Origin: Chrysomallon squamiferum
Taxonomy: Eukaryota > Animalia > Mollusca
Direction: 5' to 3'
Assembly (NCBI GenBank): GCA_012295275.1
Contig: CM022671.1
Span: 32,302,001-32,366,000, forward strand
Length of the DNA stretch: 64,000 nucleotides
Numbering within the stretch: position 1 is the stretch's first letter; each line of letters begins with the position of its first letter. This document shows positions 3,147 through 9,383 of this stretch, in pieces. The notes beneath the pieces are model-generated. The model did no database searches. It had not been told where the DNA came from and saw only the letters and a list, made by a program, of their open reading frames with translations. The position numbers and the translations under genes are program-made.

Positions 3147-3308
3147 CGGAGATATAGTTGTAACAAGCAGGTGTCGGGTTGTATTTTCTGCAGCACTCTA
3201 ATGACATGACAAACTCCAGTTGAATCCAGTGCCCTTGAAGACAGTAGTAGATGATGCAGTCTCTCGTGGTGTACGCTCCGTCTCCACACTCACTCATTGT
3301 CGTGGAAG
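3147..3308 (-). CDS. Cys-rich secreted protein A, exon 3 (TSTTMSECGDGAYTTRDCIIYYCLQGHWIQLEFVMSLECCRKYNPTPACYNYIS)
   Basis: 162-nt phase 1-1 exon, acceptor tgtgccag, donor G|GTACTA. Six Cys with spacing identical to paralogue B. Confidence 0.8.
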
Positions 3309-3647
3309 CTGGCACAGGTGAAATTACAGTTTAAATATTCTCACAATATGATAAATACAGAACACGCATACACAAACACACACACACACGCGCACACATA
3401 CACACATCTACATATATACATACATCCATACATATGCAAAAATATGCAAGAAAATGTTTTTAAAATAAGAAAAATAATAAATTAATTAACGTAAAATTTT
3501 TGTTCTTGTTATTGTTTTATTATTATTATTATTATTATTATTATTATTATTATTATTATTATTATTATTATTATTATTATTATTATTATTATTATTATTA
3601 TTATTATTATTATTACTGTAGTACCAGGTATTGTTCGTTATACTCAC

Positions 3648-3704
3648 TTGTGGTGGTAGTTGGGCCTTCGATGGTAGGAAGAGTTGTCATGGAAACCGGT
3701 AGAG
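3648..3704 (-). CDS. Cys-rich secreted protein A, exon 2 (ALPVSMTTLPTIEGPTTTT), Thr/Pro-rich linker
   Basis: 57-nt phase 1-1 exon, acceptor gatttcag, donor A|GTGAGT. Confidence 0.75.
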
Positions 3705-4264
3705 CTGAAATCATAAGTTTGAATATTCTCTAAATATGACAAATACACAAGACAAATACAAATACACACACACGCAGACAAACACACACACATATACACA
3801 CACATATACACACATACATACACAAACATACATAAAAATATGCAAGAAAGTGTCCTTAAAATAAGAAAAATAATTAAATAATTAACGTAAGATTTCAGTT
3901 ACTTGCCATCAATCGCTGTAATGCTCATCAAGTAAGATTAATCAAACAAAACTAATCACAAGCTTGCACGAGTTGTTTCTTAGATTAATCTTAATCCATT
4001 TATTTATTTGTTTGTTTGTTCTATAATTATTAAATTAATTAACGAATTATTATACAATTTATGAAATTCTTATGCAGAAAGACAAATCATTTCATCTCAG
4101 AAAATGGGATAAATGCTGTAAAATGTGAAAGAGAGAGTGAAAAATATTGTCACGAATGATTAGAACTTTAAACCATTATTACAAAGAAATACTAGTGGTT
4201 TCTTATTGCTACAAGCAAATGATTTTATCTGTTTTATTACGACTATATTATGACAAATACTCAC

Positions 4265-4322
4265 CAGTAGTATGCAAAACGAAAAAACCGAGCACAAAAC
4301 TTATTACAACTGCGGCAGCCAT
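4265..4322 (-). CDS. Gene A signal-peptide exon, copy 1 (MAAAVVISFVLGFFVLHTT)
   Basis: caaaATGG start context, hydrophobic 19-mer, phase-1 donor G|GTGAGT. Joining to exon 2 gives a TTA-LP cleavage-like site. Confidence 0.8.
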
Positions 4323-4394
4323 TTTGAATTTATTGATAAGAACGTGTAAATGACCCAGTTATTTCTATCTTATCTTAGAAGATAGTTCAAGATC

Positions 4395-4400
4395 TTTATA
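4395..4400 (-). promoter_or_regulatory. TATA-like TATAAA about 75 nt upstream of the ATG (also 5007-5012, 5606-5611, 6206-6211, 11143-11148, 11747-11752)
   Basis: TATAAAGATC is present at the same offset in all six units. It abuts an (ATT)n tract, so chance occurrence is possible. Confidence 0.45.
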
Positions 4401-4876
4401 ATAATAATAATAATAATAATACTAATAATAATAATAATAATAATAATAATTCTATTATCTCTAAATCTGTTTTATTGAATATAAAATCCACATGATTAAT
4501 TTTGTTCAAAAATATAGTTTAATTTCTTACGAATTCAAGCTTGCAAGAGTCGTGTTTCTTAGAGTAATCGTTTTCTATTTATTTATTTCTTTGCTTGTTT
4601 GTTTGTTTGTTTGACTGTTTGTTTATTTGTTCAATAATTATTAAATGAATTAAGAATCATTATTATTTATGGAATTCTTATGCAAAAAGACAATTCATTT
4701 TATCTTACAAAATGAGATAAATGGTGTAAAATGTGAAAGAGAGAGTGAACAAAATTTATGTGATTAAAGATTAGAACTTTAAACCATTATTACAAAGAAA
4801 TACTAGTGGTTTATTATTGCTACAAGCAAATTATTTTATCTTATTTTATTACAAAGTTATTATGACAAATACTCAC

Positions 4877-6075: not shown

Positions 6076-6133
6076 CAGTAGTTTGCAAAACGAAAAAACC
6101 GAGCACAAGACTTATTACAACTGCGGCAGCCAT
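6076..6133 (-). CDS. Gene A signal-peptide exon, copy 4 (MAAAVVISLVLGFFVLQTT)
   Basis: Intact ATG, 58 nt, GTGAGT donor; followed upstream by the non-repeated flank shared with gene B. Confidence 0.7.
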
Positions 6134-6659
6134 TTTGAATTTATTGATAAGAACGTGTAAATTACCCAGTTATTTCTATTGTACCTTAGAACTTAGTTCT
6201 AGATCTTTATAATAATAATAATAATAATAATAATAATAATAATATTAATATTAATAATTAAAAAACAAATACAACCAATGTTACAGTTACAGATACTATG
6301 TGTCTCAAGACAGACAATGACCATAAGAAGAATACAAATAATACTGATGATGATGAAAATGTACTGGGGAAAAAAAATTGGTCTAAATCTGTTTTATTGA
6401 ATGTGAAATCGACATGATTAATTTTTAATCAAAAATATATTTAAATTTCTAACGAATTCAAATTGTTGTAATTTTCAAATCATCCATATTAATTTATCAG
6501 TTATTATTATTCTTTTTGCTTTTGTTGTCATCATTTTCGTTACGATTTTTACTATTGTTATTCTTCTCATCATCATCCTGTTGTAATTATTGTTGTTGTT
6601 GTTGTTACTGTTATTATTATTATTATTATTATTATTATTATTATTATTATTATTATTAT

Positions 6660-8090
6660 TATTATTATTATTCATTTACTCCAAATAAATTCATCGTTAC
6701 TATTATGAAGGCTATCGCTATCATATAAATTAAAGCATGTTATTTTTTTGACAGTGTTTCTTACAGTCGTTTCCTTTTTAACGATTTCGTTTTTCGTTTA
6801 GTGGATTTTGTGCAAACCTCATCCGTAATAGTTCTCTGAATCGACAAATTGATTTATTTATTCTTTCCTTTATTTGTTTATTTTTGTTTATTTGTTTGTT
6901 TATCAAATACTTTGTTATGTGAACGCTAAAGATCCTTCGCTGTTAAAATCTATCAGGAAAACGTATGACTACTACTACTACTAAAGTACTTCTATTAAAT
7001 GCATGTATTACTGAAACAACAACAACTACAATTTCTACTACTACTACTACTACTACTACAGTTATTACTACTTGCACGCATTCCGATTTCCTCGTAAAAT
7101 AAGTGTAGTATTCTTGGTATTATTTACTGCAAATAATTGCATTGTTACCTGGGTCACATCTGTGCTATAGATTACATCTAAGTATTGCATAATCGAAATA
7201 CAGACACGTTTCTATTCTGTAAAATGTTTTTCTTAATTTTAATGTTTGTTGTTTTCTATTTTACTGTTAGTCGAGATGTTTCTTTTTCGTTTCGTTTTCT
7301 TCTTCTGTTTTTCTGTGGCAGTCGATTTATTGTTAATCAGACTAGAGTCAGTATATTTAAAACATGTTGTCTGGTTTGTATACAAACAGTTAAAACCAGG
7401 TGTATATTTATCCGCCGGTGCTCCACAACCGGTTTATCACAGGTCATATTATGTTTTCCTGTCAGTGGGAAGGAAAATATAAAAGATAGTATGCTGCTGA
7501 TACAGAAAGAGTAGCCACTTTAGTGTCTGTGAGGGTTTTCTCTGTGGTTATCTGTATTGTTCTCTGACGTGTGTATGACACATAAGTTATAATTTATAAC
7601 TGTGAATTGGTAACGTGCTGTGTTCATCATTAAAATAATATTTCTTCCTATCTTCCGAGTGCATGTTTCATTTTGCTACTGTCAAATAATATCTGTGATG
7701 GTGACAATAATCTAACTCATAAAACCTTGTAACTTATAAAAACCAGGAACGAATAAAAAATCTACTATTATCCTGCCAATATGATTTTGACGTAACTATA
7801 TATTTTTTTTTAATTACTACATGCAAAATCAGTGGTTACTACTGCAACAACTACTACTCTTTCTATTATTAACATTACTACCACTATTACTACCACTATT
7901 ACCACCACTACCACTGCTGCTATTACTACTACTACTAGAACAACCATTACTACTACTGATATTATTACTATTATTGTTATTTATGTTAATATGATTGTTA
8001 TTTTTATTCTTAGTGTTATTGTTGATATGTTTGTTGTTATTAATGGATAACATTATTAAGGGCTGTTGTTGTTGTAGTTGTTATAATATA
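6660..8090 (-). pseudogene. Second exon-less remnant of the thioredoxin-like locus
   Basis: ~6670-7880 aligns with ~16555-17715 (Trx intron 2), and ~7960-8085 resembles ~20450-20573 (Trx upstream region). All four Trx exons are absent. Confidence 0.7.
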
Positions 8091-8611
8091 CTTATTATTA
8101 TGTCTGTTATAAAATCAACACTGTATGCTAAACAAATTAAGTGCAGGTTTGAAGTTATCAATTAGAAGTGAGGTATGTTTTATTTTTGTAGAATGTCCAG
8201 AACTGAACACTATATGATCATTGTTGAAAAACTGTGTAATAAAATATATATCATCAGTATTACATACATGTATGTATATATACATCCATATGTATTTGTA
8301 TGTATATATGTATGCATACACATTTATGTATTTGTGTTTCCATGTGTTTATTTACATCAGAGGAACTAATTCATGTTATCATTTTTATTCTTATTATTTC
8401 AGTTTGCCAAAAAATCACTTTTACTCAGTGGAAATGAATGTAATATTTTTTTTGAAACTGTAATTATTAAGGAGATTGGAGGAACCTAAATTTTTAGGCT
8501 TTAAAATCAGAACAAAACAGCAAACTGGTTATATTTTATTACAGTCGGTATGTCACACGCAGTAACATTTTATTCACTGTAATGTCTTTACTTTAGCATT
8601 CAGCCAGTCCA

Positions 8612-8631
8612 TCATTGGTTTAATACGTAGT
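8612..8631 (-). CDS. Cys-rich secreted protein B, terminal exon 4 ((D)YVLNQ*)
   Basis: Acceptor ttaattgttttttcag, phase-1 TGA at 8612-8614, AATAAA at 8569-8574. Confidence 0.7.
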
Positions 8632-9179
8632 CTGAAAAAACAATTAAAAAACGCCAATTAAAACAAAAAAAACAAACAAAATTTGAAAAACAATTAAAAA
8701 CAAAACAACAAAAAACAAAAAACAATTAATAACACCCCCTACAATAATTTTACTGTATGTATTTATTTTACTATTGCTACACTATTTGTTCTCCTTCTGG
8801 TATTACTATCACAGCTGTTACTATTTCTACTGCTGTGTTTTTACTATTATTATCACGACTACCACCACCAGTACTACTACCACTATAACTACTATCACTA
8901 CCACTACTACAGCCACTACTAATAATAACACAACCACTGCCATTACCACTACCACTACTACAAAAACCACTTCCACTACCACTACAACAACAGATGATAC
9001 TACTACTACTACTACTACTACTACTACTATTATTATTATTATTATTATTATTATTATTATTATCATCATTATTTTTGTTGTTGCTACACATATTGTCATT
9101 GTTTTTGTTGTTGTAGTTATTGTGTTGTTGTTTTTGTTGTTGTTATTGTGATTTTTTATTATTATTATTACTGCAGTAC

Positions 9180-9383
9180 CGTAGACATATTGGTAACAAG
9201 AAGGATCTGGGTTGTATTTTCTGCAGCACTCTATTGACATGATTAACTCGACTTCAACCCTGTCATCTTCCTGACAGATGTAGAGGAAACACCCTTTTCG
9301 GGTGATGTGTCCGTATTCACACTCAGTCGTGGTGGTAGGTGGGCCTTCGATGGTAGGAAGAGTTGTCATGGAAACCGGCAGAG
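9180..9383 (-). CDS. Cys-rich secreted protein B, exon 3 (TLPVSMTTLPTIEGPPTTTTECEYGHITRKGCFLYICQEDDRVEVELIMSIECCRKYNPDPSCYQYVY)
   Basis: 204-nt phase 1-1 exon, acceptor tatttcag, donor G|GTACTG; Cys spacing C-x9-C-x4-C-x15-CC-x8-C. Confidence 0.82.

What the first reader, a model, noticed from the sequence alone, without database searches (positions are those of the whole stretch)
3147..9383. Strong replacement-biased divergence in the Cys domain
Seen by hand codon alignment from Cys1 to the end of exon 3: 26 of 47 codons change amino acid, while only 2 of the 21 conserved-residue codons carry a silent change (TGC/TGT and CCG/CCA). Signal exons, linker exon, introns and UTR are near-identical between A and B. 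Variation concentrates in loops 1-3, and ECCRKYNP is invariant. Known: this pattern typifies toxins, immune effectors and fertilisation proteins under positive selection. Gene conversion of the flanks is an alternative contributor.
Basis: partly seen in the sequence, partly recalled or inferred. Interest (0 to 1): 0.85.

Follow-up and report, generated by a model that had tools for sequence, protein, structure and literature searches.

The report
Hypervariable six-cysteine exon in mollusc tandem genes
Two neighbouring copies of a small, likely secreted mollusc gene differ at 29% of bases in their cysteine-rich exon but only 5% in the introns around it, and other individuals carry further versions changed mainly in the same predicted hairpin, a familiar pattern of likely defence or recognition proteins seen here in a protein family with no Pfam entry.

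Summary
The counts are right: 26 of 47 codons differ in amino acid and 2 of 21 identical-residue codons carry a silent change. The Cys exon is 29% diverged against 5% in introns. The '2 of 21' figure understates silent change. Pairwise dN/dS is 1.1-1.6, not different from 1 (p 0.38-0.88), and exon dS (0.27-0.37) exceeds flank divergence (0.052; p 0.005-0.014).

Contigs of other individuals restore part of the case. Long B-type contigs from 3 runs vary at 10 of 141 Cys-domain sites and 0 of 143 flanking sites, 8-9 of the 10 changes being replacements. A three-sequence site model gives p 0.03-0.07. Cysteines and reading frame are conserved, and exon-sized units are exchanged.

The host is probably a basal gastropod. 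The domain has no Pfam match. Its only homologues found are repeat proteins of freshwater mussels, and it is predicted to be a pacifastin/VWC-like sheet plus two helices.

Verdict: likely diversifying selection plus gene conversion, with moderate support. A known pattern in an undescribed family; function inferred, expression untested.

The parts
6076..6133 (-). Gene A, signal-peptide exon, copy 1 of 4 (each in a ~600 bp tandem unit with its own TATA-like upstream piece)
   Evidence: ATG, 19 hydrophobic-core codons, phase-1 GT donor; TATA-like piece seen for the 4322 copy
5476..5533 (-). Gene A, signal-peptide exon, copy 2 of 4
4877..4934 (-). Gene A, signal-peptide exon, copy 3 of 4
4265..4322 (-). 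Gene A, signal-peptide exon, copy 4 of 4 (nearest)
   Evidence: mean hydropathy 2.9 over residues 4-16
3648..3704 (-). Gene A, Thr/Pro-rich linker exon (57 nt, phase 1-1); looks like a Cys-exon unit that lost its Cys domain
3147..3308 (-). Gene A, Cys exon (162 nt from an in-frame AG 9 nt downstream; the acceptor used by B reads AC here); six-Cys domain at 3288-3163
   Evidence: whole stretch 3105-3385 found in one contig of run X1 with 1 other letter; splice sites predicted, no RNA
2160..2215 (-). Gene A, last exon: four residues, stop, short UTR with AATAAA
   Evidence: predicted
11617..11674 (-). Gene B, signal-peptide exon, copy 1
11013..11070 (-). Gene B, signal-peptide exon, copy 2
10000..10800 (.). 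Garbled stretch that alternates between a linker unit and a signal unit at fixed offsets; holds a broken linker-like exon at about 10390-10458; likely an assembly consensus overlay
9776..9832 (-). Gene B, linker exon (57 nt)
9180..9383 (-). Gene B, linker plus Cys exon (204 nt); six-Cys domain at 9321-9196; variable hairpin at 9285-9241
8176..8231 (-). Gene B, last exon: four residues, stop, UTR with AATAAA
   Evidence: predicted
14118..14840 (.). Copy of window 1-679 (84%), suggesting that the array continues to the left of the window
16702..17833 (.). Third copy of the genes' downstream flank with no Cys exon beside it

Best explanation
A and B are tandem copies of a small, predicted secreted gene whose six-cysteine exon is likely driven apart by diversifying selection on a predicted beta-hairpin, while gene conversion and unequal crossing-over likely keep the signal, linker and intron sequence alike and shuffle pieces between copies. 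Shown: the exon layout in the DNA, the 29% vs 5% contrast, conserved cysteines and frame, further versions in other individuals, and exchange of an intron block within B. Predicted: a three-stranded sheet plus two short helices; the helix carrying ECCRKYNP would be the structural core and the sheet the binding face. Inferred: an O-glycosylated Thr/Pro stalk of variable length presents the domain in mucus or haemolymph, where it binds a changing foreign partner. I put host defence or microbe recognition at about 40%, mucus or shell matrix 20%, protease inhibition 15%, gamete recognition 15%, venom toxin under 5%.
For: Contrast 41 of 141 vs 42 of 845 intron bases (p 7e-16). Constraint on the frame: 0 of 6 Cys and 2 of 12 mussel-conserved positions change, against 26 of 47 overall (p 0.008, 0.007), so an average dN/dS near 1-1.6 implies higher values elsewhere (inference). 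Long B-type contigs of runs X2, X5, X8: 10 variable sites in 141 domain bases, 0 in 143 flanking bases (p 0.0008; 0.005 if one intron site from other runs is counted). The X5 version differs from window B by 9 bases within 35 nt, 7 residues, 0-1 silent steps. It supplies the intermediate codons at positions 13 and 17, each reached by replacement steps. A in runs X1 and X5 differs by one base, a replacement (I12M). Three-sequence tests: partition p 0.031, mixture p 0.027 and 0.071. Length differences between versions of +33, +21, +18 and +30 nt are 4 of 4 multiples of three. B's intron before the linker exon is 2.7% from B's own intron before the Cys exon but 12.6% from A's counterpart. All four combinations of the variants at 9241 and 9264, 23 nt apart, occur. 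Each exon unit is flanked by microsatellites. Two AlphaFold models agree on the fold (pLDDT 82 and 83).
Against: Pairwise dN/dS is not above 1 in any of 6 one-ratio or 2 two-class fits, and exon dS exceeds flank divergence in all 8. The five-tip tree T2 is not significant (p 0.14 partition, 0.13 mixture). Replacement vs neutral polymorphism gives p 0.006-0.12 depending on how ambiguous steps are counted; silent share within the domain alone p 0.06-0.38. None of these is corrected for multiple testing, and recombination inflates site tests (PMC10127084, passages). Window B has lost G19 and W21, which are invariant in 19 of 19 full mussel repeats, which could be decay. B-type versions are assumed to be alleles of one locus; contigs cannot prove it. 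No evidence on function or expression.
Confidence: 0.55

Rival explanations
1. Old paralogous Cys exons with homogenised flanks. The domains split long ago and drift nearly neutrally outside a conserved frame, while gene conversion among microsatellite-flanked units keeps resetting the introns, signal and linker. Selection only needs to resist conversion of the Cys exon.
For: dS 0.27-0.37 vs flank 0.052 (p 0.005-0.014); dN/dS near 1; direct sign of intron exchange; at least two further types whose Cys exon does not lay at 80% while both flanks do (joints 3147-3297 and 3204-3297/3302); codons with 0/1/2/3 differences (19/18/7/3) are near the independent expectation (16.8/20.6/8.5/1.2).
Against: It does not by itself explain why B-type versions in different individuals differ almost only by replacements in one hairpin. 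Only 2 silent changes in 14.2 silent sites of same-residue codons, compatible with the flank rate (p 0.17). With the X5 version added, dS equal to flank is borderline (p 0.05-0.09). Sparing exactly one exon from conversion usually itself implies selection for difference (inference).
Confidence: 0.27
2. The window's B hairpin is one imported conversion tract or a decaying variant, not adaptive point change: nine differences arrived together from an unseen paralogue, or constraint was lost after duplication.
For: 9 differences in 35 nt; loss of G19 and W21; the X5 version sits at the internal node of the three-sequence tree (branch length 0), so the changes fall on window B's branch; the hairpin sequence of the other types could not be read.
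Against: X8 carries an intermediate (H20 with the rest as window B). All six cysteines, the frame and ECCRKYNP are intact. The window-type hairpin is present in 3 of 6 runs laid (X1, X2, X8). A donor tract would still need an explanation for its replacement bias.
Confidence: 0.15
3. Assembly or consensus error produced the divergence.
For: A garbled overlay lies 600 bases from B's Cys exon (10000-10800), so the assembly is locally imperfect.
Against: Both exons are found in independent public runs: A 3105-3385 in one X1 contig with 1 other letter; B 9140-9423 in one X2 contig with 1 other letter and 9213-9369 in X1 with none.
Confidence: 0.02

Closest known systems
Uncharacterised repeat proteins of unionid mussels: KAL3854154.1 (Sinanodonta woodiana, 12 repeats) and KAK3595400.1 (Potamilus streckersoni, 8 repeats)
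   Same: Homologous domain (E 1.8e-39 and 6.1e-13 summed over repeats; names): C-x9-C-x4-C-x15-CC-x7/8-C with shared G, G-x-W, E, ECC and P, Thr-rich linkers, net negative charge; same predicted secondary structure.
   Different: Many repeats in one chain, several nearly identical (39-40 of 41 residues), against one hypervariable domain per gene here; 11-18 of 42 residues identical to A or B; no function known.
Pacifastin inhibitors, and VWC / VWF-mucin small beta modules
   Same: The predicted three-stranded sheet superposes in register from the first cysteine (Foldseek prob 0.84-0.96, rmsd 1.6 over 26-28 residues, E 0.37-1.2; VIA Z 3.0, rmsd 2.7, 32 aligned); vWC domains at Z 2.0-2.1.
   Different: All matches are below significance. 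No Asn after Cys2, no Cys3-Cys5 pair, no Cys5-x-P1-P1'-x-Cys6 loop (features from PMC13388995, passages); two helices with CC and a last Cys are added.
Mytilus CRP-I peptides
   Same: Molluscan, six cysteines, conserved signal and pro region with hypervariable Cys region, single- and multi-domain forms, gene presence/absence (PMC10138031, abstract start and passages).
   Different: CRP-I has the knottin array with CC at positions 3-4 and a dibasic cleavage site; here CC is at 4-5, the spacing is longer and no dibasic site precedes the domain.
Scorpion toxin genes (and cone-snail and snake toxin genes, recalled)
   Same: Mature Cys domain far more diverse than leader and intron, explained by diversifying selection (PMC2651877, passages).
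   Different: There the neutral rate in the mature region equals the intron rate; here exon dS tends to exceed it. No sequence or fold link to toxins was found, and the homologues are in filter-feeding mussels.
Sea urchin Sp185/333 (SpTransformer) cluster
   Same: Tandem genes with similar flanks bounded by microsatellites, proposed to promote duplication and conversion; hard to assemble (PMC3091723, abstract and outline).
   Different: Unrelated proteins; mechanism analogy only.

Membership tests
Unionid six-Cys repeat domain (unnamed) | Cys spacing C-x9-C-x4-C-x15-CC-x7/8-C with G4, E25, E31, P40 | tested here: met
Unionid six-Cys repeat domain (unnamed) | G19 and W21 (19 of 19 full mussel repeats) | tested here: inconclusive
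   met in A and in the X5 version of B, not met in window B
Pacifastin (PF05375) | Asn directly after Cys2 and the C-N-x-C core | tested here: not met
   residue after Cys2 is I (A), F (B), N in 0 of 19 mussel repeats; no Cys between Cys2 and the Cys four residues on (feature from PMC13388995)
Pacifastin (PF05375) | Reactive loop Cys5-x-P1-P1'-x-Cys6 | tested here: not met
   no Cys five residues before the CC pair
Pacifastin (PF05375) | Three-stranded sheet fold | tested here: inconclusive
   top-ranked but non-significant structural matches
Pacifastin (PF05375) | Disulfide pairing 1-4, 2-6, 3-5 and protease inhibition | not testable with these tools
   model coordinates are not returned; no assay
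VWC / SVWC | Pfam profile match, 8-10 cysteines | tested here: not met
   0 families for A and B at E up to 10; none of these families for the mussel proteins at E up to 1; six Cys only (cysteine count recalled)
VWC / SVWC | Fold | tested here: inconclusive
   VIA Z 2.0-2.1
Mytilus CRP-I / knottin | C-C-CC-C-C array | tested here: not met
   array is C-C-C-CC-C (CRP-I array from PMC10138031)
Conotoxins (a C-C-C-CC-C framework is recalled) | Conoidean host and venom-duct expression | tested here: not met
   GPR161 of this window falls outside the clade of Nucella and Babylonia; expression not testable
Genes under diversifying selection | dN/dS significantly above 1, overall or at a site class | tested here: inconclusive
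   pairwise p 0.11-0.88; three sequences p 0.027-0.071; five tips p 0.13-0.14
Genes under diversifying selection | Exon silent divergence no greater than intron divergence | tested here: inconclusive
   rejected pairwise (p 0.005-0.022), borderline with the third sequence (p 0.05-0.09)

The most novel reading that the evidence does not exclude
An undescribed mollusc-wide recognition module, a pacifastin/VWC-type sheet that traded one disulfide for a helical cap, is used as long homogenised arrays in mussels but as single stalk-mounted domains in this gastropod. There it is diversified MHC-fashion: balanced alleles differing by bursts of replacements in one hairpin, exon-sized gene conversion between microsatellite-flanked units, variable stalk length and individual differences in gene content, together forming an unrecognised polymorphic immune repertoire.
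Probability: 0.3. Interest if true: 0.65.

Novelty: new member of a known kind. Interest (0 to 1): 0.45.

Why it matters
The evolutionary pattern is well known from toxins and molluscan defence peptides. What is new is the carrier: a six-cysteine domain with no Pfam family, shared between a probable basal gastropod and freshwater mussels, that varies between individuals in one predicted hairpin. If selection is confirmed, the hairpin marks a binding surface and gives a direct handle on an unknown host-microbe or gamete interaction. The locus also tests a long-standing question: whether raised silent divergence in hypervariable exons comes from multiple hits under selection or from conversion of the flanks. 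Here intermediate alleles are available to separate the two.

Tried and rejected
No whole genome is held, so paralogues outside the window were seen only as pieces of contigs.

Homology searches. Word-index searches found nothing for B (2 candidates, 0 hits) or for short relatives of the mussel protein (0 of 7984). Pfam: 0 families for A and B; the hits on the mussel proteins have 0 passing stretches and are treated as repeat noise. PDB sequences: nothing credible. Atlas: no usable hit by features; one under-the-bar pacifastin row from a poor model. P0005 was dropped as a low-complexity match. Fold searches gave 0 matches at E 0.001 or Z 5; absence there shows nothing.

Runs. No RNA holder was listed, which is no evidence on expression. 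A's Cys exon had no cover in runs X6 and X7 and no A-type letters in X2; this hints at presence/absence variation, but a hole in contigs proves nothing.

Dropped analyses. I built a haplotype joining X1's window-type hairpin to six changes at 9201-9207. Its depth (60.6) fits a collapsed bubble carried by one copy only (expected 60.2), so the phase is unsafe. I discard the trees that use it (T1 p under 0.001; T4 p 0.002-0.023) and the 17 of 141 count. The T2 mixture fit was stuck and was rerun. The flank totals typed into the Fisher tests were rough and are replaced. Transversion excess in the domain (30 of 41) is not significant against non-coding DNA (p 0.17), so targeted hypermutation has no support. 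My first guess of a unionid host was rejected by the GPR161 tree (quick tree, the careful search did not finish).

Literature and earlier findings. 0 papers hold the motif ECCRKYNP or the five accession strings; 0 hold all six terms; some searches returned only the analogues cited. Earlier findings: 3 look-ups, nothing.
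Full report
ANATOMY. Two tandem genes lie on the minus strand. Each has signal-peptide exons in ~600 bp tandem units (4 in A, 2 clear in B), a 57-nt Thr/Pro linker exon, a Cys exon (A 3308-3147, B 9383-9180) and a short last exon with stop and AATAAA. All internal exons are phase 1-1 and multiples of three. In A the acceptor used by B reads AC and an in-frame AG lies 9 nt downstream; run X1 has the same state. Splice sites are predicted, with no RNA support. The domain pattern is C-x9-C-x4-C-x15-CC-x8-C. 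Microsatellites flank every exon unit. Window 10000-10800 alternates between two templates at fixed offsets and is likely an assembly overlay, so B's unit count is uncertain.

OBSERVATION. Confirmed: 26 of 47 residues differ, 2 of 21 same-residue codons are silently changed, 41 of 141 bases differ. Introns differ at 42 of 845 and outer flanks at 50 of 986 aligned bases (K80 0.052), in blocks that I chose as alignable and repeat-poor. Changes concentrate in codons 1-27 (20 of 27 vs 6 of 20, p 0.004), and the 8-residue invariant run is unusual (p 0.011). Both exons recur in independent public runs, so the divergence is not an assembly error.

THE STATISTIC. '2 of 21' conditions on codons that hardly changed. 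Counting multiply hit codons gives 4 to 10 silent steps. Nei-Gojobori: pN 0.312, pS 0.218, dN/dS 1.57, interval 0.78-3.97. My ML codon model: dN/dS 1.09-1.59, p 0.38-0.88 in 6 of 6 settings; dS 0.27-0.37, above the flank value with p 0.005-0.014. Two-class models: p 0.11 and 0.56 for a class above 1; dS equal to flank rejected at p 0.022 and 0.010. Setting aside 13 positions conserved in the mussel homologues gives 1.56-1.96, p 0.19-0.38. Neutral decay is also excluded: 0 of 6 cysteines and 2 of 12 frame positions change (p 0.008, 0.007).

OTHER INDIVIDUALS. One search listed 11 runs, 9 holding the stretch, none on record as RNA. I laid 6 of the 9; all are contigs, which drop variants. B-type contigs: X2 (9140-9423) has 1 silent change; X8 (9140-9369) has that change plus D20H; X5 (9140-9423) has 9 changes within 9251-9285, giving 7 residue changes with 0-1 silent steps. 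X6 and X7 share the X5 state at codon 24 and were only partly read. Together: 10 variable sites in 141 domain bases vs 0 in 143 flanking bases (p 0.0008); replacement vs neutral sites p 0.006-0.12 by counting rule. The X5 version keeps G19 and W21, as do A and 19 of 19 full mussel repeats; window B has lost them and gained acidic residues. With A, B and the X5 version, a class with dN/dS about 6 (31% of sites) is favoured at p 0.027 (kappa 1.36), or p 0.071 (kappa 0.85, different estimates), and dS equal to flank is borderline (p 0.086, 0.050). The five-tip tree is not significant (p 0.13-0.14). I discarded stronger p-values that rest on an unsafely phased haplotype. No multiple-test correction was applied, and recombination and multi-base changes inflate such tests (PMC10127084, passages). 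A differs in X1 and X5 by one replacement. Joints show further types whose flanks lay but whose Cys exon largely does not: one in 5 of 6 runs, one in 3 of 6. Length differences of +33, +21, +18 and +30 nt are all in frame.

EXCHANGE. B's intron before the linker exon is 2.7% from B's intron before the Cys exon and 12.6% from A's counterpart. All four combinations of the variants at 9241 and 9264 occur. Flanks are therefore not a clean clock, and conversion or unequal crossing-over is part of the mechanism, as proposed for Sp185/333 (PMC3091723, abstract and outline).

IDENTITY. HMMER over 1.84 billion representatives gave 3 hits; two are real: repeat proteins of Sinanodonta woodiana and Potamilus streckersoni. 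No Pfam family. The window's GPR161 groups with Patella (SH-aLRT 91, quick tree, 55 rows), away from bivalves, neogastropods and heterobranchs, so the host is probably a basal gastropod and the domain probably old in molluscs. AlphaFold on a 4-row alignment predicts strands at codons 6-9, 12-17 and 20-26 and helices at 30-36 and 40-45 (pLDDT 82); a mussel repeat folded from the same four rows gives the same elements (pLDDT 83). Variation lies in the sheet and the invariant motif in the first helix. Structural neighbours are pacifastins and VWF/mucin modules, all below significance. Pacifastin's defining Asn, third disulfide and reactive loop (PMC13388995, passages) are missing, so it is not a pacifastin. 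CRP-I has a different array (PMC10138031, passages).

MECHANISM AND VERDICT. Most likely (0.55): diversifying, partly balancing, selection on an exposed hairpin of a secreted stalk-plus-domain protein, with conversion homogenising the rest. Rivals: old domains with reset flanks (0.27); an imported or decaying B hairpin (0.15); artefact (0.02). Function is inferred from architecture and analogy only, with defence or recognition first. The pattern is known from scorpion toxins (PMC2651877, passages) and CRP-I; the family is not described in the library searched (also 36, 52, 62, 77 as search listings). Supplements were not read. New member of a known kind; interest 0.45.

Noticed in passing
window 4065-6260 and 10810-11790: The promoter-like piece plus signal exon is repeated four times in A and at least twice in B in ~600 bp units, all with intact frame and donor; could give alternative first exons or higher dosage.
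   Followed up: partly
window 10000-10800: Block-wise overlay of two repeat templates, likely a consensus error; hides a probable second linker exon and third signal unit of B.
   Followed up: partly
window 3648-3704 and 9776-9832: Linker exons look like Cys-exon units with the Cys domain deleted and a new donor site, with the same downstream intron start.
   Followed up: partly
window 3317-3318: A's ancestral splice acceptor reads AC; an in-frame AG lies 9 nt downstream; same state in run X1.
   Followed up: partly
window 14118-14840 and 16702-17833: Copies of the cluster's flanks without a gene; suggests a lost third unit and more copies left of the window.
   Followed up: partly
window 47824-49119 (+): Intronless GPR161-like receptor; 91% to one unnamed protein, 56% to Patella vulgata.
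   Followed up: yes
window 57170-59430 (-), possibly to 62000: Exons of an acid sphingomyelinase gene (E 3e-18 for the exon at 59236-59430; neighbouring exons read).
   Followed up: partly
window 18296-19165 (-): Two exons of a probable DsbA-like thioredoxin-fold gene (weak Pfam match, E 0.003, below cut-off).
   Followed up: partly
window 33767-34540: Tandem array of a ~20-nt unit with long open frames; likely a minisatellite.
   Followed up: no
window 19744-20000 and 42056-42311: Inverted dispersed repeat, 257 nt, 96% identical; likely a small mobile element.
   Followed up: no
P0003, P0004: Mussel repeats are homogenised at the N-terminal end and diverged at the C-terminal end, where the last repeats look orthologous between the two species (30-31 of 41 identical).
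   Followed up: partly
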